Below are positions 10,764-33,191 of a stretch of DNA of 64,000 nt, piece after piece (position 1 is the first letter of the stretch; each line of letters starts with the position of its first letter). The notes beneath the pieces were generated by a model that saw only the letters and a program-made list of their open reading frames with translations, ran no database searches and was not told the origin of the DNA. Location of the stretch: IMG/VR virus record IMGVR_UViG_3300031994_000022, one strand, 5' to 3'. The translations under genes were made by a program, and so were the position numbers. The stretch comes from a virus (lineage: Duplodnaviria > Caudoviricetes).

Positions 10764-11141
10764 CTAATCTTGAGGTGCATTTTTTGCACTTTGGATTTTC
10801 ATAATCTCAGCACCAGCATCAAGTATCAGTTTACGATACTTAGCAAAATCAAAGTTTTCGGTTATACTATTTTTGGCTTCTTCTAACAAACTAAGTACCG
10901 TTACTAACTCTGGTGGTTCTCCGAGTAATTCATTAAGACCGGATATTCGCCAAAGTAGAGTAGTATTAGCTTGTTCTAGATTTACTTCCGGAAACTTTTC
11001 TTTAGTTTCCAAATCTTCCGCTACAAGTAGCAAGAAGAATATTCTCTTACGTAACACTTCCTTTATTTCCGAGATTTGCATATCTGCAAACTCGCCATAC
11101 TTATGTGGATACATTAGACGTTGCCTAAATAAGGGTTCCAA
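10764..11141 (-). CDS. hypothetical virion-module protein
   Basis: co-oriented, coupled to neighbours. Confidence 0.7.
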   Translation of the reverse strand: MEPLFRQRLMYPHKYGEFADMQISEIKEVLRKRIFFLLLVAEDLETKEKFPEVNLEQANTTLLWRISGLNELLGEPPELVTVLSLLEEAKNSITENFDFAKYRKLILDAGAEIMKIQSAKNAPQD

Positions 11142-11575
11142 ATATAACCCTTATCCCTTAGCATTGATCTTACTTTGTTTTCGGCATCTTCTAATATTCC
11201 ACGAAGTTCACTAATGTGAGCTGATTGTGAATAGTATTTCTGTTCTTTACTATTAGTAATCATTTGATTAAGTAAAGTAGTAGTCCTAAGTATAGGACTC
11301 AACCATTCACATATCATTTGACAACCAAGCAATTCCTCAACAAAGTTTTTGTCTGTATATTCATTAACGGAAGAAGTAAGAGTGTAATCAATTTCGGCAA
11401 TTTCATCATCTGCCGAAAATGATTCAAATATTCTGATTATGTACGGCTGGCTTAGAGCAGAACGAAGCCATTCTAACATCTGCTCAGTAGCATTAGGTTC
11501 GGGGAGTTCCGCGAACTTGTAGTCCCGTATTTTAATCAGAAATCTTGAATAGATATCATTGTAAGTAGAGGTCAT
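11114..11575 (-). CDS. putative head-tail adaptor
   Basis: helical 153 aa protein (MTSTYNDIYSRFL...YSQSAHI) downstream of capsid. Confidence 0.6.
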   Translation of the reverse strand: MTSTYNDIYSRFLIKIRDYKFAELPEPNATEQMLEWLRSALSQPYIIRIFESFSADDEIAEIDYTLTSSVNEYTDKNFVEELLGCQMICEWLSPILRTTTLLNQMITNSKEQKYYSQSAHISELRGILEDAENKVRSMLRDKGYIWNPYLGNV

Positions 11576-13872: not shown

Positions 13873-15663
13873 TTACTTTGAAAATATTCCACCATATCTA
13901 GAAGATGACTTAGCAGCCTTCTTAGATGGATTACCAAATAGTTTCATACCAACCTGTTTCTTCTCAGGTTCTTCAGATGAAAACTCAATTTTATTGTGCT
14001 TTGAATACTCAAGCAACATTTTGTCAAGCTTATCAGTTAGCTCATCCGTAGAGAGATCGAAGTAATTCTCTCGCTTTGATAACTCGACAAATTCCTTGGT
14101 TTCTCGAATATTCTTCCAATCCTCTGACTGAAGAATTTCCTTCTTTGCTGGTTCGGACTCGTACTTTGCAAGTTTTTCCTCAATAGCAGAGTAGCTAGTT
14201 TTCATCTGTTCAAGAGCATTCTTCTCATCAGCAGATAAGAACGAAACAAATGTTTCAATTCTATCACCCTTAAGTGAATATACATCTTTCTTTACAGAAT
14301 AAGACTGACGATAGTGCTTATTATTCCACCAATCGTGGAATTCAACTATCTTAGTTTCTTCAATAACATCACAATCATACCATGCACCATCAGACTCACC
14401 GTAAGTATCATTTACAAGAATTGTAAGAGCATTCAGCTTTTCCTTGAGTGATACTGAATAATCTTTCTTTGCACCCTTAACAGACACAGTATAATTTACG
14501 GAATAGTAATTAACATCTTCTGGATCTTCGGTATTATCATCAGGTTCATCAGGTTGTTCTTCTTCCTCAGATTGTACTTCAGGAGTATCGTCTTTATCAT
14601 CAGGATTCTCATCATCGTCCTGATTTTCCTTGTCATCATCATCCTTGTCGCCATCCTCATCGTCATCGTCTTGATCCTCATCGTCAACAATTACCGAATC
14701 ATCATCTTCAGACTTCTTACGCTTTTTCGGACTATCTTCAAAGTTTTCTGTAGAAGGAGTGAAATGCTCTGCAAATACTGCTTCGAGTTCCTCATCTGAA
14801 AGTCCTTCGTACTCAAAATCAATTTCATCAATTGACTTTCCATATTGTTCTAAAAGCTTTTCAAACATTGGTTTTGGATTACCTCCTTCCTCTAGAATTT
14901 CGTTGTTTATATTAAGGTTATCTATTTTCTCGTTAAGAGCAGATAACATCTCAATAACTTTTTCATTCTGTGAGAATATACTATTATTCTCGACACTAAA
15001 GTCGGCAATTGAAATATTGCTTCCAACCATACCAGGCTTTACTTCTTCGCCTGTGTAACGATTCTCTTCAAGTATTGTGACTCCACTAAATCTAAACTTG
15101 TCTATACACAATACTTTCTCTTTAGAGTCATAAGATAATTCATCTACAAATAACTCTACACTCACAGACAATCTCTTTTCTCTTTCTATAATTTCTGCTG
15201 CTTTACTGTATGTTTTCCAAATAATACCAGTACCGTCAACATAAGTCTTATCCATATCTACATCATATACTAATTTAAGATCGGCTGATTCCGGTATACA
15301 GCCAACTGGGATTTCCTCATATACGGTTTCACCATCATCATTAACATACAACTCATGACTAGCAAAAACATCTTTCTCACCATTGTTATATATATATCCT
15401 AAGATTGGCATATTATACGCAGTAGGCAAAGCATTCTCCATAGCCTTTTCAGATATAAAACTTTGGTTGGCATTTTTCTCTGTGTGACAAAGTCTGATAG
15501 GACAATACATATTCAATTCATCATCTTCAGACTGATCATATGTAAACGGTTCATCTATATGAACTACAATGGTAGTGTCATTATCAGCAGAACTGAATTT
15601 TACATTCTTATTCTGAGTTACATAATAATTATATAAATCAGAGAGATATAAGAGTTTTTTCAC
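13873..15663 (-). CDS. prohead protease/scaffold protein
   Basis: LCHTEKNAN, PILGYI, LSVSVEL protease-like N-domain; acidic linker; coiled-coil C-terminus. Confidence 0.75.
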   Translation of the reverse strand: MKKLLYLSDLYNYYVTQNKNVKFSSADNDTTIVVHIDEPFTYDQSEDDELNMYCPIRLCHTEKNANQSFISEKAMENALPTAYNMPILGYIYNNGEKDVFASHELYVNDDGETVYEEIPVGCIPESADLKLVYDVDMDKTYVDGTGIIWKTYSKAAEIIEREKRLSVSVELFVDELSYDSKEKVLCIDKFRFSGVTILEENRYTGEEVKPGMVGSNISIADFSVENNSIFSQNEKVIEMLSALNEKIDNLNINNEILEEGGNPKPMFEKLLEQYGKSIDEIDFEYEGLSDEELEAVFAEHFTPSTENFEDSPKKRKKSEDDDSVIVDDEDQDDDDEDGDKDDDDKENQDDDENPDDKDDTPEVQSEEEEQPDEPDDNTEDPEDVNYYSVNYTVSVKGAKKDYSVSLKEKLNALTILVNDTYGESDGAWYDCDVIEETKIVEFHDWWNNKHYRQSYSVKKDVYSLKGDRIETFVSFLSADEKNALEQMKTSYSAIEEKLAKYESEPAKKEILQSEDWKNIRETKEFVELSKRENYFDLSTDELTDKLDKMLLEYSKHNKIEFSSEEPEKKQVGMKLFGNPSKKAAKSSSRYGGIFSK

Positions 15664-15691
15664 TTCTCCATATTCCTCCTTTCTTTAAAAA

Positions 15692-15730
15692 TAACAAAAC
15701 GCAGAGCAGACCTTTTACAATCTACTCTGC
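15692..15730 (-). terminator. terminator-like hairpin closing the RNA array
   Basis: GCAGAGTAGA/TCTGCTCTGC stem followed by GTTTTGTTATTTTT. Confidence 0.55.
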
Positions 15731-15763
15731 AACCGTAATCAATACGGTTCTCTCCTTATATGT

Positions 15764-15806
15764 GCCTCCATTGGACACTTCATTGAGAGGTGTGGAGGCT
15801 TCTGTC
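15764..15806 (-). ncRNA. abiF-like RNA hairpin, copy B
   Basis: GACAGAA-GCCTCCA-CACCTCTCAATGAAGTGTCCAA-TGGAGGC; covaries with copy A. Confidence 0.6.
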
Positions 15807-15811
15807 AAAAT

Positions 15812-15858
15812 GACCCGACGTGGTACGCATCAAAGTGAGAGGCGTGTCGGGTTCTGTC
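15812..15858 (-). ncRNA. abiF-like RNA hairpin, copy A
   Basis: GACAGAA-CCCGAC-ACGCCTCTCACTTTGATGCGTACCAC-GTCGGG; resembles the abiF motif as recalled. Confidence 0.7.
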
Positions 15859-16353
15859 CAATATAAAAGGAGCTGTGTGTACCAGCTCCAATTCCTCGCA
15901 ATATTGGCAGTAATTACAGTTTACTGCCGATAATTCCTTAGCGAGTCTCGGCGTTTTTCTTTTCAGATATCTGCATCCTAGTCAGGGTAAGACTGCCGCA
16001 GCTTACGGTAGAACCTCCACGTAAGAACCTGACAAACCTTACGCTTCAACGGTTAAACTTAACTAGTGAGTAATATTCTAACCGTTACTCGCGGTACGAA
16101 AATGTCACGAAAACTATATACTATTCGTGACACAATCTCAGCTCCTCCTACCAATAGGATAGGTGAGTAAGTAGATAATGCGTAGTCCCGGTGTTAACAC
16201 ATAACACTTACCACGACGGAGGCAGGATACTACGACTTACAATATCTGTCAGAGCGTACTCCACATGGAAGTCTGACAATCCCATGCTTCACAGCAGATC
16301 CGCCAATACCCAAGGGCGAAGAGTAGTTTAAGTGCTTAACTCAGGCACAAACA

Positions 16354-16396
16354 TTTTCAAACCGACCTTTTATATTGCGGTAATCGGTCTCCGCAT
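16354..16396 (-). ncRNA. CptI-like pseudoknot
   Basis: TGCGG-AGACCGATTA-CCGCA-ATATAAAA-GGTCGG-TTTGAAAA. Confidence 0.7.
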
Positions 16397-16610
16397 GGGT
16401 TCTGTTTATTTTGCAACTTTCATTTGATGGCTTATGGTAAGTTGCCACCTTTATACATCTCCACATTCACCGCATACCATCACGGATTCCGCTTCATAGA
16501 CATCTACACTTAGGCGGTGAACACCATGTATTGGCTCTGTTCTCGCTCCACTCTTGTGTCTTTACCACAGATTTAAAGTCTACACCTACGCTACTGACTA
16601 CCAATATTTT

Positions 16611-16644
16611 GAATCGCTAGAAGTTTTAAGTCGTCCTAAAGACC
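16611..16644 (-). ncRNA. ToxI-like pseudoknot, copy 1
   Basis: GGTC-TTTAGGAC-GACT-TAAAAC-TTCTAG; 30/34 identical to 16911-16944. Confidence 0.65.
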
Positions 16645-16910
16645 ATATGGTTATCCGATATTGCAGTGTTTTACAGATTCGTCATCCAACCATATGAACA
16701 CCTCTGGAAACGTGCCTCCTCGGAATAGGGCTACACCAGTACCATTACGCACCTACGTGTTTAGGTCTTTTCGTTGACCAAATATTAAAGCGACTCGGCG
16801 CGGATCTTCACCGCCATCGTGCTAGTTATAGGGAATTCGCCTCGGTTACCAACCTTAACGCCGCTTATAATAATCCACTTTTTATTTGGAAGCGATGGGA
16901 CACTTCGTTT

Positions 16911-16944
16911 GAATCACTAGGAGTTTTAGGTCATCCTAAAGACC
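16911..16944 (-). ncRNA. ToxI-like pseudoknot, copy 2
   Basis: GGTC-TTTAGGAT-GACC-TAAAAC-TCCTAG. Confidence 0.65.
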
Positions 16945-17361
16945 GCTCGTAATGGGTTTAATGTCTCCATACCGACAAAAAGAACGGCATTGATGCTGGC
17001 ATCGCTACCGCTGAAAAACCTTTGGCTTTTCGTTCATAATCCACCGTTGTAGCATAGGTCGTGGGACACCTACCGCACCGTTCTTGGAATTTCTTTGTTG
17101 TGGGAGTTACCCACTTCATTATTTTTCCTCACACTTCGCCGCCACACTAAATGACTATAAAGGTTCTCACTTGAATTTTAAGGTGGACGAGATATTCCAC
17201 CAGTAGAGTTATTGCGCATTACGGTAACTTCGCTTACCTCGGTACTGTCGGTTAAGGGAGCCGACTCCTATTGGATAGCTGACAACATATCACCTATTGC
17301 CGAGCTTTCATGGTATATTTAACGCCCCCCACTAGGGAAAGAGGTGCTATCCGTTGTCCTC

Positions 17362-17507
17362 TTATATTTTACTGCCCTATCAAAACCATCATAGGACTCT
17401 TCACCCGGTCAATTTTTATTTTACCGACGAGTCAGAACCGTCACTCGTCATCTTCGCTCGGTCAGTTTTTATATTACCGACGAGTCAGAACCGTCACTCG
17501 TCTCATC
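17362..17507 (-). repeat. three tandem 52-53 nt structured repeats
   Basis: hairpins at 17479-17502, 17426-17449, 17374-17397; loop GAYGGTTYTG conserved, stem covaries. Confidence 0.85.
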
Positions 17508-17567
17508 TATTATGGAATTATTTTTTGTTTTATTTGGTTGATTTGGATCATTTGCGTAATACCATTT

Positions 17568-17595
17568 AAAAAAGACGACAAATTAACGTCGTCTT
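17568..17595 (-). terminator. intrinsic terminator after portal
   Basis: AAGACGAC/GTCGTCTT stem plus T-run. Confidence 0.7.
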
Positions 17596-17621
17596 AAAAA
17601 TATTGTTTTATTATCTAAAAG

Positions 17622-19178
17622 TTATCCTTCGCTCCTTGCCCTAGAACGTTCACCTGAATCAGATAAATCTCCTTCATCTACTTGTGGTCTTCCTTGTCCA
17701 ATTTCAGAAGTATATCCATCTTCAGTACCACTTTGGGTATAAGATGAATTTAGAGGACGAAGTTTATCACTAAGACCTAATAATTCTTCTTCTACATAAT
17801 TCATACAGATAGTGTCTTTTTCACTAAATCCATTAAGAGTATTGATAGCTAACTTAGTTGGTAATCCATACTGACCAGACGAAAGTAGCTGTTCTCTATA
17901 GTCTGACTTTGTATATGTTGAAATTGGCATAAAACGTACTTTGCAGTCATCGGCACCCTCATAACTAAGCATCCTCATTACCCAAGATTGTATTTGTGGT
18001 AGAAGAGAAGAGATGGCAAATTCTGTGTTGGCAATGGTAGCCATCTTAAATGCATAAGTATTATTGATGGTAGCACCATTAAGTATTTCAGCACCACCAG
18101 CCGTATTTAGTACTTGCTCTGTAGCTTTAGCAACTTTAGTAGTATCAGTTGCTTTATCATCACCAAAGCTTATTTCATGCAATTGTCCAGGAACAATGGC
18201 AGTAGCTATATAATCCGGAATACTATCATTAAGCTTATCAAAATATGGTAATGAAAGATCCGGGTCGATTTTCCAATCGTCTATTCGCTTCGATCCGGTT
18301 ATGGTTTCTAATTCGTACCACAGAAGCTTGTATACGCTCGCAGCATCCCCCGCTGCTTGAATGTCCTCAAGGTCTGCAAGATTTATAATACTATTAAATA
18401 TACCGCTCCAGGGACTGACTATTACATCCAAATCTTCAATTCTAAACTTCATACAAACTTGATACTTAGAATCTATCAGTTGCCACTTTTCACCAGTGCT
18501 TTGATAATTTTTCCAAACATCTTCAAATACTTCTGGTATATATTCAATAAGTTCTTGTCTATTTCTTAGCCATGAGGCATCAAAAAAATAAGACAGATCA
18601 CCTGTCATAAATTTTCCAGCTATCTTACAATAATCAGCTGGTAATTGCATATGAAATACCCCAGTATCATCATGAATATAGATACCATAATAAATATCTT
18701 GAACAAAACAAGTAAATATTATTGGATAAAATTCCTGCTGTAATCTCATTATTGAAACTGCATCAAGAGTATTTTGATAAGATTTCATTATCTTATCAGC
18801 ATTATTTTCTTTGACTAAATCATATTTAGGAATAATGCTTCGACAATCTAAACAAAACATTTCACTAAAGAAATGAACAATCCTATAAAATACATGAGAC
18901 CTATACAGAAGGTACCAGGCTAACGCTCGCAAATTCTTTTCTTGAGATCCGATATTTTGTAAATATTGTCTTAATCTTTCTTTATCAAAAGTAGTAATTG
19001 TTTTATTATAAGTCTTACCAATATCTCTTAATTGTTTAAGCATCTTATCTTTATTTTCAGTAGCAAAATTTGTAACCATATCTAAACGGTCTTTATTTTT
19101 GCTATACCAATCTTTTATTTCAGCCACTGTCGGCTGTTTAGGTGCATTCGACACCTGTGTAGTCTTTGTTCGTGCCAA
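17622..19178 (-). CDS. portal protein
   Basis: 518 aa directly downstream of terminase; C-terminal SSYTQSG...GRP tail typical of SPbeta-like portals. Confidence 0.75.
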   Translation of the reverse strand: MARTKTTQVSNAPKQPTVAEIKDWYSKNKDRLDMVTNFATENKDKMLKQLRDIGKTYNKTITTFDKERLRQYLQNIGSQEKNLRALAWYLLYRSHVFYRIVHFFSEMFCLDCRSIIPKYDLVKENNADKIMKSYQNTLDAVSIMRLQQEFYPIIFTCFVQDIYYGIYIHDDTGVFHMQLPADYCKIAGKFMTGDLSYFFDASWLRNRQELIEYIPEVFEDVWKNYQSTGEKWQLIDSKYQVCMKFRIEDLDVIVSPWSGIFNSIINLADLEDIQAAGDAASVYKLLWYELETITGSKRIDDWKIDPDLSLPYFDKLNDSIPDYIATAIVPGQLHEISFGDDKATDTTKVAKATEQVLNTAGGAEILNGATINNTYAFKMATIANTEFAISSLLPQIQSWVMRMLSYEGADDCKVRFMPISTYTKSDYREQLLSSGQYGLPTKLAINTLNGFSEKDTICMNYVEEELLGLSDKLRPLNSSYTQSGTEDGYTSEIGQGRPQVDEGDLSDSGERSRARSEG

Positions 19179-19190
19179 GTCGCACCTCCT

Positions 19191-21236
19191 TTATCTGCCC
19201 ACTATTTTTGCTGGGCGAATTGTTAATTTATCTAAAAGATAATTTGAAGATACTTTTGGCTTCTGAAGAAGCAACTTACGTCTTTCCTCAGCCAATGCGT
19301 GTCCAAGCATACAACAAGTATAGGCACGGTCGTCATGCATTTTATTAGCTTTTTCTGGGGTTAACTCAAAAGAGTCCTTACCGGATTCCCTTTTCTTTCT
19401 CACCATATTAACCAATTCTTCTTTCAAAGCATCGATATTTGCTAAAGCAATTTTATCTTTCCAATCCAACTTTATAGTTTTAGTATTAACCGATTGTACC
19501 TTACCTAATTCTTCTTGTAATTTATCTTCAAATTCTTTTTCATTTAGTTTTTTCTTTTTTAATTCTTCAATTATTCTTCCACGTTCTTTGTCTAATTTCT
19601 TCTGGTCAATATCAAATACAGTAAGATATTCTTTATTATCATATGTACTTGTGAAACCAATCTTATCTTGATTAAGCATTTCTATTAGTGCTTCATACAT
19701 CATCGATTTAAATTTAGCCGGTTCCATAAGATGAACCTTGTCCACCGCATTTGGGAATCTACCAACATAATCAGCAGAGTATTCTTTATCTATTAATCCT
19801 CTATGAATAATACCATCAGAAGTTTCCCAATCTGGCATCAAGTAATCGGCTATGTTCACACCGCCTCCTCCCGTACCAGCATCAATCCAAATACCGACAA
19901 TATTTTCATATGCATCAGCACCAGCGTTGTAATCAAGAATCATTTGTTTTAAATATTCAATCTGATCAGGCGTTCTCATAGGACTCTTGATTCGTTTACC
20001 GACATCCAAAAGATTAACACCATTAACAATCTTTGCTCTTTTATCAATGCTTCCATCTACTTGTATAAAATCATAAAACTCAGCCACAAGTATAAATGAG
20101 TTATCCACCTTACGAGCAGGGTCATAAAATAACCCATATTTCTTATCACCAGTTTCATTACAATGAATTGGCTTTCGAGTTTCCTCATTACGAGTAATAA
20201 CACCACGTTTTACAATGGCATCCGAACCAGCTTCTGTTGTAAATTGACAGTAATACTCGCGCCTCGCCTTTTCTGGATTTGTTCTCATTTCAGATTCGAC
20301 AGTAGAGCGAGAGAGTAGTGGAGCAATAACTTCACCATGTAATGTCGGTTTGAATGCGAGTTCACAATCAATGTGAAGAACACAATAATCTGGGTCTCCC
20401 ATAATCTGACGTTTAGCAAAATCTCTATATAAAGAATAAAACTTTGTATCAGTAGAAGATGCACTACTAATATAAAACTTTTGGTTTGGTATATCTGTGG
20501 CAAACGTTCTTTGTCTAATAGGGTCAATAGAACGACCACTTGCATCTTTACCAGTCTTTAAGCTTTTATTTACAATAGCAAACGCCGAATATACATTCAT
20601 CATTTCTTCCGATAAAAAACCGCTTTCATCGAAGATTACGTTTCCTCTCATTCCTCTCTTTTTATCTATATTACTGTTGAGCGTCTGAGTCATCGACCCA
20701 TTATAGACTTCGTAATTGAATCCATTAGAAGAATGACTAAAACCATCGCCAGCTGCATTTTTGATTTTTATTTCATCTTTAAATATTTTTCCTGTAGAAC
20801 CTGCAAAGGTATCTATGTTATCATTTGCAATACGTTCGAGCGTTGTGAAAGTTTGTTCTGCCTGAGAACCAGATCCTGAAGCAATATATGTCCAATAATT
20901 ACAGAAACACATGTCCTTCATCATGGTTTCTAAATCTATAACTGTTGATTTTCCCCAACCTCGAGTCGCAACGATTAATACATTTGGACAATTCCATGAA
21001 CGCTGTACTGCTAAAGCTTGAGAATCCAAAAGTTCAATATTAAACCAAAAATCTATACCAGCTACGGGATTACATTGAAAATATTTCTGCATCATCGCAA
21101 TAGCCTGTAACGCTTCAATTTTTCTCGTAGACATAGGATAATCAATTGGCTTTACAAATATTCCATAATCTTTATAGAAATCTTTATCATATTGCAAATC
21201 ATAATCAAAACTATTCGGTGTCCATATCTGACTCAT
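19191..21236 (-). CDS. terL: terminase large subunit
   Basis: Walker A ATRGWGKS, Walker B VIFDESG, nuclease motifs YDPAR...D, IDAGTGGGG, HDDRAY. Confidence 0.9.
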   Translation of the reverse strand: MSQIWTPNSFDYDLQYDKDFYKDYGIFVKPIDYPMSTRKIEALQAIAMMQKYFQCNPVAGIDFWFNIELLDSQALAVQRSWNCPNVLIVATRGWGKSTVIDLETMMKDMCFCNYWTYIASGSGSQAEQTFTTLERIANDNIDTFAGSTGKIFKDEIKIKNAAGDGFSHSSNGFNYEVYNGSMTQTLNSNIDKKRGMRGNVIFDESGFLSEEMMNVYSAFAIVNKSLKTGKDASGRSIDPIRQRTFATDIPNQKFYISSASSTDTKFYSLYRDFAKRQIMGDPDYCVLHIDCELAFKPTLHGEVIAPLLSRSTVESEMRTNPEKARREYYCQFTTEAGSDAIVKRGVITRNEETRKPIHCNETGDKKYGLFYDPARKVDNSFILVAEFYDFIQVDGSIDKRAKIVNGVNLLDVGKRIKSPMRTPDQIEYLKQMILDYNAGADAYENIVGIWIDAGTGGGGVNIADYLMPDWETSDGIIHRGLIDKEYSADYVGRFPNAVDKVHLMEPAKFKSMMYEALIEMLNQDKIGFTSTYDNKEYLTVFDIDQKKLDKERGRIIEELKKKKLNEKEFEDKLQEELGKVQSVNTKTIKLDWKDKIALANIDALKEELVNMVRKKRESGKDSFELTPEKANKMHDDRAYTCCMLGHALAEERRKLLLQKPKVSSNYLLDKLTIRPAKIVGR

Positions 21237-22994: not shown

Positions 22995-23065
22995 TTGAAA
23001 ATGTAGGATTCGAACCTCGCCCCTACAGCCCAAGTGTAGTGTGCTACCATTACACCACATTCTCA
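22995..23065 (-). tRNA. tRNA-Pro(TGG)-like, imperfect T-stem
   Basis: GTGTAATGGTAGCAC D-arm; CTACA-CTTGGGC-TGTAG anticodon arm; GGTTCGAATCC. Confidence 0.7.
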
Positions 23066-31645: not shown

Positions 31646-32549
31646 TTACGATTTCATATGCGACTTATAAAAAATATAAAAAATATAGATAAGACCTTGT
31701 TATTGGGTCTTATTTTTATTGCTGATTTTTCATGGAAGTGTGTGGATAAATCTGCAAGCCTGGTTTAGCCTGCTGCTGACCGGGTTTTTGTGAAAAATAC
31801 CCCTATAAGTACCTAAAATAGTTATTTTACGTATTTTTAAAAATCGCATAAAAGTGTGAGATAATATAATTGAGCAAAGCAAAAAATGCTTATCGCACTT
31901 TGAAAATTCTATAACAACTGACGAAATCGCTCCCATAGTGTCAATCAAGAGGTTGTAGCACCGCAAGGTGTAGCACCTAAAAAGGGCTTGGGTAACGACC
32001 AAGGGCAAGCTTGAAAGACTCACAAAAACAAGGGCTGAGCAACTAATCAATTACAAGCCAAGTTTGAGTAAGACTTGAGAAAAGGGCAAAATGTGAGATG
32101 CGGAGAGTTTAAGAAAGTACTCAAAGTATTATAGATTTATATTGAAACAAGGTAGTGAGAATCTAGCTATATCTACACTTTAGGAGTTAACAAAAAACCC
32201 CTTTGATAAGTAAAGGCTATTATGACTCTATGTAGTCATTTCACAACTATGTTTGTGTTATAGCTGTAGACGAAAACAAGATGGTTGAGAGTCCATCAAT
32301 AAAGATATAGGAGTAAATATTATGTCATACATAATAATAAGAGTTGTTATGTATCTTTTCGCATTTACGATACTTTACGAATTGATACATAACAACCATC
32401 ACAACAACTAATTACTCCCCACTCTATGGTGACAGCATAGAGTGGGTCTTTATTTAAAAATACACTATGTATTGATTAAAGTCAATAAAAAAGTTTGTTG
32501 ATTTTAATAAATATATAGTCGACGGACTTTAAACGAATGGAGGTATTCT

Positions 32550-33191
32550 ATGTATAATTATCTTAAGAATGGCGTAACTGTTAACAATGGTATTATGGCA
32601 ATAGTTGAAGAGTTCAACACAATTGCTCGTGAATTAGCCACAAAGTCTATTGAAGCTAACACAACAAAAAAGGCACTCGAAAAGGCACTTGATGAGGCTA
32701 TCGAGGCTAAGGACGCTGAGAAAACTGAAGAGGCTAAAAAGGCACTTGATGCACACGTTAAAGCTTGGAAGGCTGAGAGCGGAGAGTATAATATAAAGCT
32801 TTATGGTGGCAAAGTTGACGACAAAAAAACAGTAGGCATAGTTGATGGTATAGTTACTAATGAAATGTATAAAGCTTATGTTGAGTATATGAAAGGTGAA
32901 GCTGAGGACGGTAAAGAGGGATACAAAGCTGAGATTAAAAAGTTTATGTGTAAAGTATTCAATGAATATACGACTAAAGATGACATCAAAGCTTCTGTAT
33001 TCAACCATTTCTATACAGACATAGCAACAATGTCTAAAAAGAATAGTAATAAGAATATAGCTGAGGGTTGTGCTTATGTATCAGTAGTTAGCAAGCGTAC
33101 TTATAAATATATGATTTGTGGGGCACTCGCTGATATAGTAGCTAACAACCACACACTTAAGGTTGCAAGACCTAAGAAGAATGGTAAGTAG
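32550..33191 (+). CDS. hypothetical early protein
   Basis: GGAGG RBS; strong codon bias. Confidence 0.8.
   Translation: MYNYLKNGVTVNNGIMAIVEEFNTIARELATKSIEANTTKKALEKALDEAIEAKDAEKTEEAKKALDAHVKAWKAESGEYNIKLYGGKVDDKKTVGIVDGIVTNEMYKAYVEYMKGEAEDGKEGYKAEIKKFMCKVFNEYTTKDDIKASVFNHFYTDIATMSKKNSNKNIAEGCAYVSVVSKRTYKYMICGALADIVANNHTLKVARPKKNGK

What the first reader, a model, noticed from the sequence alone, without database searches (positions are those of the whole stretch)
16611..16944. Duplicated ToxI-sized pseudoknot, exactly 300 nt apart, with structure-preserving changes
Seen: 34 nt copies at 16611-16644 and 16911-16944 differ at 4 positions, all C/U on the minus strand. The two changes in stems turn G-C into G-U (S1 GGTC/GACC vs GACT; S2 TAGGA/TCCTA vs TTCTA). 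The 4 bp S1, 8 nt loop, 6 nt TAAAAC linker and A-rich tail match ToxI topology. This fixes the functional strand and suggests two variants of one decoy.
Basis: partly seen in the sequence, partly recalled or inferred. Interest (0 to 1): 0.78.

Follow-up and report, generated by a model that had tools for sequence, protein, structure and literature searches.

The report
Repeated mini-pseudoknot in phage RNA island
Two copies of a 37-base RNA knot head two swappable non-coding RNA cassettes inside a phage's head-gene operon; the knot belongs to a widespread phage family that matches no Rfam 15 model and has the same dimensions as the ToxI antitoxin, but nothing found here links it to a toxin.

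Summary
The repeat is real: 37 nt at 16608-16644 and 16908-16944, 33/37 identical, all four differences C/U on the minus strand. It lies in a 1958-nt ORF-free, GC-raised tract between the portal gene and the next head gene of a 142-kb uncultured phage.

The predicted H-type pseudoknot is supported, but not by the four changes, which are uninformative. The support is family-level covariation. Viral contigs sharing only stem 1 and the UAAAAC linker show matching loop and 3' strands far above chance. A second scan with stem 1 left free found seven different complementary stems.

The unit therefore belongs to a widespread phage mini-pseudoknot family with no Rfam match. Its layout matches ToxI position for position: 4-bp stem, 8-nt loop, 6-nt linker.

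The decoy reading has no direct support. The copies are not tandem, the 300-nt spacing is absent in relatives, no ToxN gene was found and no bacterial cognate array turned up. The tract does hold a genuine CptI-like unit.

In relatives, insertions and deletions start exactly at the motif, so it heads shuffled RNA cassettes. My inference is an RNA roadblock or stabiliser.

This scan has described similar mini-pseudoknot arrays before, on other phage DNA (e1-5751351, e1-5665467).

The parts
16908..16944 (-). Copy A of the 37-nt unit. S1 is GGUC/GACC, the loop is UUUAGGAU, the linker is UAAAAC, the S2 3' strand is UCCUAG and the tail is UGAUUCAAA.
   Evidence: It scores 34.2 bits (E 1.7e-7) against model R1, which was built only from other phages' units.
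16608..16644 (-). Copy B of the unit, with G-U in both stems. It is the first 37 nt of a 468-nt block that is absent from relatives L003 and L005.
   Evidence: It scores 26.6 bits (E 3.7e-5) against R1.
16945..16977 (-). Neighbouring unit of the same family, UGUC[GGUAUGGA]GACA UUAAAC CCAUUAC. It directly abuts copy A and starts right after a terminator-like U-tract.
   Evidence: The same loop type occurs in unrelated phages with seven different complementary S1 stems.
16755..16779 (-). Third, diverged unit, GGUC[AACGAAAA]GACC UAAAC ACGU. It marks the downstream edge of cassette A and is present in all relatives that have this part.
16888..16907 (-). Covarying hairpin GAAGUG/CGCUUC just 3' of copy A. 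Its U-G and G-U pairs work only on the minus strand.
   Evidence: Alignment. W, L002, L012 and L017 keep the stem through compensatory changes.
16321..16348 (-). Further unit, GUGC[CUGAGUUAA]GCAC UUAAAC UACUC. Its linker varies between UUAAAC and UAAAAC among relatives.
16357..16401 (-). CptI-like unit inside cassette B. Loop, linker, S2 and tail match CptI of E. rectale, and S1 is swapped compensatorily.
   Evidence: The CptI sequence comes from the primer in PMC4627078. 26 of 35 non-S1 positions are identical, the best match in the window on either strand. The unit is conserved in L002, L012 and L013. L018 carries a second variant with compensatory S1 and S2 changes.
15664..17621 (-). The whole ORF-free, GC-raised, mosaic non-coding tract between the portal gene and the next head gene. 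It holds promoter-like 53-nt repeats, the conserved structured RNA M1, the pseudoknot units, drum-like and abiF-like RNAs, and several terminator-like hairpins.

Best explanation
The two copies are paralogues of one compact H-type RNA pseudoknot, read from the minus strand, which is the sense strand of the late genes. S1 is G1-C4 with G13-C16, L1 is U5, S2 is U6-A11 with U23-G28, L2 is U12, and the A-rich linker is U17-C22. The unit belongs to a widespread phage family that matches no Rfam 15 model and is defined by a 4-bp S1 of any sequence, an 8-nt loop, a U(U/A)AAAC linker and a covarying S2. In this phage the unit stands at the 5' head of two non-coding RNA cassettes. These cassettes are gained, lost and recombined among close relatives within a 1.96-kb RNA island. 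Shown: the repeat, the strand, the fold at family level, and the position at block boundaries. Inferred: the knot works as a mechanically stable roadblock to enzymes that travel along RNA. The leading candidate is a 5'-to-3' exoribonuclease of the RNase J type in a Firmicute host. A roadblock there would fix the 5' end of the RNA that follows and stabilise it, as coremin-type knots do against Xrn1 in plant viruses. I put the fold and family at about 0.85 and the roadblock function at about 0.35.
For: S2 covariation. Among 116 viral contigs chosen only for GGTC-N8-GACC-TAAAAC, loop-to-downstream complementarity is strongly enriched. A score of 5 or more occurs 16 times against 2.6 +/- 1.5 in permutations, and 4 or more occurs 30 times against 9.9 +/- 2.7. 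The loops are all different.

S1 covariation. With the loop, linker and S2 start fixed and S1 left free, 13 of 16 instances have four out of four S1 pairs, using seven different stem sequences.

Register. Sliding the 3' partners collapses pairing from 91% to 28-44% (the rows were preselected for at least 4 S2 pairs).

Membership. Copies A and B score 34.2 and 26.6 bits against a model built from other phages only.

Clustering. The signature GTC-N4-9-GAC-N0-1-T1-2A3-4C occurs five times in the 142-kb genome against 1.1 +/- 0.9 expected. Four of the five lie within 333 nt on the RNA-sense strand.

Block boundaries. The 468-nt block missing in L003 and L005 starts at G1 of copy B. The 165-nt block starts at G1 of copy A. 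L018 keeps only nucleotides 1-27, the knot itself, directly in front of a drum-like RNA.

Family context. Members are intergenic and on the same strand as the genes. Nine of 16 lie 6-54 nt after a stop codon. Others lie before terminators, before a ribosome-binding site with ATG, or between tRNAs. This fits a general RNA-stability or punctuation element.

Coremin analogy. The linker UUAAAC or UAAAAC equals the coremin spacer core. The Watson-Crick coremin variant is an H-type knot that stalls Xrn1 (PMC10520033, PMC10321173).
Against: Nothing shows that RNase J or any other nuclease is stalled. Coremin's loop consensus YGAD/YGNNAD is not met. The S1 sequence GUC/GAC is not conserved across the family. 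A downstream hairpin (hp2) is present in only some members. Units that sit just before terminators, or just after a terminator's U-tract as at 16977, do not obviously need 5' protection. Within the window alone the S2 statistics are weak (Fisher p 0.03-0.07). Nested folding energies are no better than shuffles. The host is only inferred to be a Firmicute, from portal relatives at 24-29% identity.
Confidence: 0.4

Rival explanations
1. The unit is a type III antitoxin mimic (a ToxI-type decoy). It binds and blocks a host ToxN-family endoribonuclease, and the two copies are variants aimed at one toxin, within an island of RNA decoys against abortive-infection systems.
For: The layout matches ToxI position for position: 4-bp S1, 8-nt loop, 6-nt linker with A19/A20, S2 from position 23, and 36 versus 37 nt. 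This follows from the ToxI_Pa sequence in PMC8610362 and the ToxI_Ec description in PMC8860590. Cassette B also carries a genuine CptI-like unit, and L018 has a second, covarying CptI variant. The tract also gives sub-threshold Rfam hits to drum RNA, a family reported to associate with particular nearby protein genes, and to abiF RNA. A single CptI repeat is fully antitoxic when overexpressed (PMC4627078). Phage phiTE escapes ToxIN through a pseudo-ToxI (PMC5086642).
Against: There is no sequence similarity to ToxI; by eye about 8 of 27 core positions match. Rfam gives no ToxI hit at E up to 10. The copies are not tandem. The phage has no ToxN, Abi_2 or DUF3800 gene, and 14 other records with family members have no ToxN gene. 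An exact 20-mer found nothing in bacterial genomes. A pattern with relaxed S1 gave 14 single hits, all looking like chance, with none tandem and none showing S1 pairing. Family members occur singly in ordinary intergenic positions of phages of very different GC content. That argues for an intrinsic structural role rather than mimicry of host-specific antitoxins.
Confidence: 0.2
2. The unit is a recognition or punctuation element. It could be a binding site for a host or phage RNA-binding protein, or a processing signal that separates independently folding RNAs. Examples would be a guide for endonucleolytic maturation of the cassette RNAs and tRNAs, or an insulator against misfolding.
For: Units sit at boundaries between structured RNAs: M1, cassette A, cassette B and the drum-like RNA here, and between tRNAs in L272 and before tRNAs in L137. 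The loop types (GGNAUGGA, CUGNNCAU) and the linker are conserved beyond what pairing requires.
Against: No conserved protein partner is evident across the diverse phages. S2 varies freely, which is unusual for a sequence-specific protein site. There are no processing data.
Confidence: 0.2
3. The second copy has no function. It is a by-product of recombination between related phages carrying different cassettes, and only sequence homology, not selection, keeps the two copies alike.
For: The tract is a recombination mosaic with recurring breakpoints. L013 looks like an A/B recombinant. Copy B has two G-U pairs and scores lower. The four differences are shared polymorphisms.
Against: Block edges fall exactly on unit edges, at G1 on the 5' side and at nucleotide 27 in L018. 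None of the seven copies has a broken pair. The family is conserved widely.
Confidence: 0.1

Closest known systems
[quoted passage not shown]
   Same: Both are small H-type pseudoknots of 36-37 nt. Both have a 4-bp S1, an 8-nt loop whose first base is L1, a 6-nt A-containing linker with adenines at positions 19-20, S2 starting at position 23, and a single-stranded 3' tail of about 10 nt.
   Different: There is no sequence similarity. The copies form no tandem array of near-identical repeats. There is no terminator-plus-toxin gene downstream and no evidence of processing. Relatives of this unit are scattered singly in phage intergenic regions.
Pseudo-ToxI of Pectobacterium phage phiTE
   Same: It is a phage-encoded pseudoknot unit without a toxin gene, and its copy number differs between variants of the phage.
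   Different: Pseudo-ToxI resembles the host ToxI in sequence and acts when expanded in tandem. Here no cognate is known and the two copies lie 300 nt apart with unrelated RNA between them.
Coremin motif (xrRNA-C) and its Watson-Crick variant xrRNA-WCC of plant and other RNA viruses
   Same: Both have a short first hairpin (locally GUC/GAC), a spacer core of UUAAAC or UAAAAC, and loop-to-spacer pairing that makes a minimal H-type knot. Octaloops are tolerated in coremin. Both occur in untranslated regions of viral RNA, sometimes in tandem.
   Different: The loop consensus YGAD/YGNNAD is not met. S2 is 5-6 bp rather than about 3. The required second hairpin is not always present. The S1 sequence is free across the phage family. 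The host has no Xrn1. Homology between the two is unlikely, so the likeness would be convergent.
CptI, the antitoxin of CptIN (Eubacterium rectale)
   Same: Both are H-type knots with an A/U-rich linker. A true CptI-like unit lies about 200 nt downstream in the same cassette.
   Different: CptI is 45 nt with a 5-bp S1 and an 8-nt linker. The 37-nt unit shares no sequence with it.

Membership tests
Type III antitoxin RNA (ToxI/CptI/TenpI) | Tandem array of at least 1.9 near-identical repeats of 31-62 nt (PMC3401426, Table 2) | tested here: not met
   The two copies are 300 nt apart. Relatives carry one or none. The abutting unit at 16945-16977 has a different sequence.
Type III antitoxin RNA (ToxI/CptI/TenpI) | A terminator followed by a ToxN/CptN/TenpN toxin gene directly downstream | tested here: not met
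   PF13958 is absent from the 142-kb genome and from 14 other records with family members. CptN and TenpN profiles could not be run. No ORF of 60 aa or more lies in the tract.
Type III antitoxin RNA (ToxI/CptI/TenpI) | H-type pseudoknot with a short S1 stabilised by linker adenines | tested here: met
   Both stems are supported by family covariation. The dimensions equal those of ToxI.
Type III antitoxin RNA (ToxI/CptI/TenpI) | Sequence or profile similarity to a known antitoxin, or a cognate array in bacteria | tested here: not met
   No Rfam hit at E up to 10. There were 0 and then 14 chance-like hits in 185,579 bacterial genomes.
Coremin / xrRNA-C | hp1 of 3-4 bp with loop consensus YGAD, YGNNAD or a tolerated longer loop | tested here: inconclusive
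   The 4-bp GGUC/GACC stem fits. The loop UUUAGGAU starts with a pyrimidine and ends in AU but lacks G at position 2. No consensus has been established for octaloops (PMC10520033).
Coremin / xrRNA-C | Conserved spacer of about 10 nt, GUUAAACUAC | tested here: inconclusive
   CUAAAACUCC matches 7 of 10 positions. The unit at 16321-16348 has UUAAACUAC exactly.
Coremin / xrRNA-C | A second hairpin directly after the spacer | tested here: inconclusive
   Copy A has a covarying hairpin 10-11 nt after S2. Copy B has none that is clear. Only some family members have one.
Coremin / xrRNA-C | Resistance to a 5'-to-3' exoribonuclease | not testable with these tools
   This needs an in vitro Xrn1 or RNase J assay.
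Phage U(U/A)AAAC-linker mini-pseudoknots (no Rfam 15 match) | 4-bp S1, 8-nt loop, U(U/A)AAAC linker, and S2 beginning right after the linker and pairing with loop positions 7 down to 1-2 | tested here: met
   Both copies fit the register. They score 34.2 and 26.6 bits against model R1, which was built from 18 units of other phages.

The most novel reading that the evidence does not exclude
The 1.96-kb tract is a phage-encoded, cassette-shuffled array of different RNA decoys against RNA-controlled abortive-infection systems. It would include a CptI mimic, drum-like and abiF-like RNAs. In this reading the ToxI-shaped mini-pseudoknots, including this duplicated unit, are broad inhibitors or sponge substrates of ToxN-family ribonucleases. 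The widespread phage family would then be a general counter-defence RNA.
Probability: 0.15. Interest if true: 0.9.

Novelty: new variant of a known kind. Interest (0 to 1): 0.62.

Why it matters
Small H-type knots of this size are known as bacterial antitoxins (ToxI) and as nuclease-stalling elements of eukaryotic RNA viruses (coremin). A widespread, covariation-supported family of the same build in DNA phages is absent from Rfam 15, and I found no paper on it in the library searched. If these knots stall bacterial nucleases such as RNase J, they would be the first exoribonuclease-resistant RNAs of prokaryotic viruses. They would also explain how phages define stable non-coding RNAs and tRNA precursors. 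If instead they bind ToxN-type toxins, they would be a general RNA counter-defence. This locus is a good test bed. Close relatives differ by whole cassettes that start at the knot, and the same island holds a sequence-level CptI mimic.

Tried and rejected

Thermodynamics: nested folds of the 37-mers are no better than shuffles (z -0.5 and -0.2). They favour a third, nested hairpin, so they are not informative about a pseudoknot.

The four differences as evidence for structure: rejected. They are shared polymorphisms, and about two thirds of transitions would be tolerated anyway.

Generic H-type pseudoknot count in the tract: 6 clusters against 1.6 in shuffles, but coding controls gave 1-5. This is not decisive, so claims of many further knots in the tract are probably over-called.

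Within-window S2 test over five units: Fisher p 0.03-0.07, which is weak.

Extended similarity around the two copies: none beyond 37 nt. The idea of two back-to-back larger cores is not supported by sequence.

Bacterial cognate search: the exact 20-mer gave 0 hits. The pattern with relaxed S1 gave 14 single hits, mostly in coding-looking sequence. The same pattern in viral contigs gave only relatives and chance hits.

CptI pattern: one viral scan was wasted on a pattern with the wrong spacer length.

The permutation test was used instead.

Taxon-restricted searches: relatives cannot be drawn for a virus record and no Clostridia handle was available. Natural cptIN and toxIN loci could therefore not be sampled.

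Phage nucleotide search with the whole tract: no match among 50,697 GenBank phages.

Full report
**Setting**

The window is part of a 141,835-bp IMG/VR virus record, estimated 95% complete. The genes around the finding are all on the minus strand. They are a large terminase (19191-21236), a portal (17622-19178, phrog_2739, E 4e-79), a 596-aa protein of phrog_3313 (13873-15663) and further head genes.

Between the portal and the next gene lie 1958 bases (15664-17621) with no ORF of 60 aa or more. G+C there is 0.42-0.47, against 0.30-0.38 in the flanks. The nearest cultured phages, by portal protein, infect Firmicutes, at only 24-29% identity.

**The observation**

The repeat is real. It is 37 nt long (16608-16644 and 16908-16944), 33/37 identical, with a spacing of 300. 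It is the only significant internal repeat of the tract (E 2e-7). All four differences are C/U on the minus strand, and two of them give G-U in the proposed stems.

Seven copies from this phage and its relatives show that these four sites are shared polymorphisms in different combinations. Roughly two thirds of random transitions would be tolerated by the fold. The pattern is therefore compatible with the structure but is not evidence for it. Nested folding energies equal those of shuffles.

**What the tract is**

Portal homologues brought in ten related loci, and pattern scans brought four more. The gap varies from 176 nt in distant relatives, through 657, 914 and 1522, to 1958 nt here. It is a mosaic of blocks with recurring breakpoints.

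Reading 5' to 3' on the minus strand, the tract contains the following:

- The portal terminator at 17572-17595.
- Two 53-nt repeats at 17398-17502.
- A conserved structured RNA of about 360 nt, M1 (about 17011-17368). One of its hairpins is replaced by a different hairpin in relatives.
- A terminator-like hairpin at 16977-17005.
- The pseudoknot units and two cassettes.
- A sub-threshold drum-like RNA at 16409-16502.
- A CptI-like unit.
- A second drum-like RNA at 15946-16054 (37.9 bits, E 6e-5, gathering score 43; reproduced in L013).
- An abiF-like hairpin at 15813-15851 (32.1 bits, gathering score 37).
- Terminators at 15869-15889 and 15700-15731.

The strand is fixed by three things: gene orientation, U-G pairs in a covarying hairpin at 16888-16907, and 13 versus 2 linker-like words on the two strands.

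**The motif marks block edges**

Relative to L003 and L005, this phage has two extra blocks, of 165 and 468 nt. Each begins at G1 of a motif copy.

- L013 has one motif followed by the cassette B body.
- L002 and L012 have one motif followed by the cassette A body.
- L017 has the motif, then the A hairpin, then the B body.
- L018 keeps only nucleotides 1-27, which is exactly the predicted knot, in front of the drum-like RNA.

So the unit behaves as a discrete module at the 5' head of shuffled RNA cassettes. The 300-nt spacing is incidental.

**The fold**

The motif shares a 4-bp stem, an 8-nt loop and a U(U/A)AAAC linker with neighbouring units at 16945-16977, 16755-16779 and 16321-16348. In the whole genome this signature occurs five times against 1.1 +/- 0.9 expected. 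Four of the five lie within 333 nt, all RNA-sense.

The decisive evidence comes from other phages.

- **S2.** A scan of IMG/VR for GGTC-N8-GACC-TAAAAC, which fixes only stem 1 and the linker, returned 116 loci. In these, the loop is complementary to the bases right after the linker far more often than in permutations. A score of 5 or more occurs 16 times against 2.6 +/- 1.5, and 4 or more occurs 30 times against 9.9 +/- 2.7. The loop sequences are unrelated.
- **S1.** The converse scan fixed the loop GGTATGGA, the linker and CCAT, and left stem 1 free. Thirteen of 16 instances had perfect 4-bp stems, of seven different sequences.
- **Register.** Sliding the partners destroys the pairing.
- **Membership.** A covariance model built from 18 units of other phages scores copy A at 34.2 bits and copy B at 26.6 bits.

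No Rfam family matches these units.

**Comparison with ToxI**

The published ToxI_Pa repeat (PMC8610362) parses as AGGU, an 8-nt loop, ACCU, UUAAGU, then GCAG. This is the same 4/8/4/6 layout and the same S2 register as the motif. It agrees with the description of ToxI_Ec: a four-pair S1, G5 in L1, A19/A20 making A-minor contacts, and a core of positions 1-25 with a 3' overhang (PMC8860590).

Membership fails on the defining features of type III loci (PMC3401426, PMC5086642):

- There is no tandem array.
- There is no toxin gene.
- There is no sequence or profile similarity.
- No cognate array was found in bacterial genomes.

**Comparison with coremin**

Earlier follow-ups in this scan, on other phage DNA, pointed to coremin. 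I checked this in the papers. Coremin is GUCCGAAGACGUUAAACUAC. It has a 3-4 bp hairpin, a loop of 4-8 nt, a conserved spacer and a second hairpin. A Watson-Crick variant forms a true H-type knot that stalls Xrn1 (PMC6546385, PMC10520033, PMC10321173).

The linker and the local GUC/GAC stem resemble coremin. Tetraloop look-alikes occur beside family members in L091 and L148. However, the loop consensus is not met, S1 is free across the family, and the second hairpin is inconsistent. The likeness is functional at most.

**Context of the family**

Members with a strong S2 are intergenic and on the sense strand of their neighbours. Nine of 16 lie 6-54 nt after a stop codon. Others precede terminators (L061, L138, L049), a ribosome-binding site with ATG (L091, L148, L271, L277) or tRNAs (L137), or lie between tRNAs (L272). 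Tandem pairs occur in L049, L270 and L271. This is the distribution of a general RNA-stability or punctuation element, not of an antitoxin.

**The CptI-like unit**

The decoy idea cannot be dismissed for the island as a whole. The CptI_Er repeat, taken from a primer in PMC4627078, matches window 16357-16401 (minus strand) at 26 of 35 positions outside S1. That is the best match in 128 kb of both strands. S1 is replaced by a different perfect 5-bp stem. L018 carries another variant at the corresponding place, with 28 of 35 matches and compensatory changes in both stems.

**Verdict**

The fold and strand are supported through independent evidence. The ToxI likeness is real at the level of architecture. 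The decoy function is unsupported for this unit.

My best reading (0.4 overall, about 0.85 for fold and family) is a modular roadblock or stabiliser knot that heads non-coding RNA cassettes. The rivals are a ToxN-type decoy (0.2), a protein-binding or processing punctuation element (0.2) and a functionless duplicate (0.1).

Noticed in passing
window 16357-16401 (-); L018:8077-8121 (+): A single CptI-like pseudoknot with no cptN gene nearby. Loop, linker, S2 and tail match CptI of E. rectale (26/35 positions) and S1 is swapped compensatorily. Relative L018 carries a different variant (28/35) with compensatory changes in both stems.
   Followed up: partly
window 15946-16054 (-), 16409-16502 (-), 15813-15851 (-): Sub-threshold Rfam matches to drum RNA (37.9 and 26.4 bits, gathering score 43) and abiF RNA (32.1 bits, gathering score 37). 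The drum matches are reproduced in L013. The phage has no DUF3800 or Abi_2 gene.
   Followed up: partly
window about 17011-17368 (-): M1 is a structured RNA of about 360 nt, conserved in all relatives that have the tract (74-95% identity). One whole hairpin is replaced by a different hairpin in relatives. It has no Rfam match and ends in a terminator-like hairpin at 16977-17005.
   Followed up: partly
window 17398-17502 (-); L137:3470-3530 (+): The 53-nt tandem repeat is a hairpin followed by UAAAAUAAAAAUUGACCG. It recurs in a complete 212.7-kb phage with a compensatory change in the stem. There it lies directly upstream of a family pseudoknot and a tRNA array. It may be a promoter or another RNA element.
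   Followed up: partly
window 32518-32540 (+): GUC GACG GAC U UUAAAC lies immediately upstream of the GGAGG ribosome-binding site of ORF 32550-33191. It is a tetraloop, coremin-like word and the only other hit to the signature in the genome. It may be chance.
   Followed up: no
L091:3387-3410 (+) and the matching place in L148: Tetraloop hairpins very close to coremin (GUCGGAAGACUAUAAAUCUAC and GUCGGCAGAC...) directly follow an 8-nt-loop family unit. They lie between a stop codon and the next gene's ribosome-binding site.
   Followed up: no
L008:5223-6035 (+): In one relative, a 270-aa GIY-YIG/NUMOD1 homing endonuclease gene is inserted between the portal gene and the RNA tract (Pfam E 1e-9). 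This marks the site as an insertion hot spot.
   Followed up: partly
L272 about 11090-11230 (- orientation): A family pseudoknot with an AGAG/CUCU stem sits between two tRNA genes of a 173-kb phage.
   Followed up: no
window 22995-23065 (-): A tRNA-Pro (UGG) gene lies just upstream of the terminase region.
   Followed up: no
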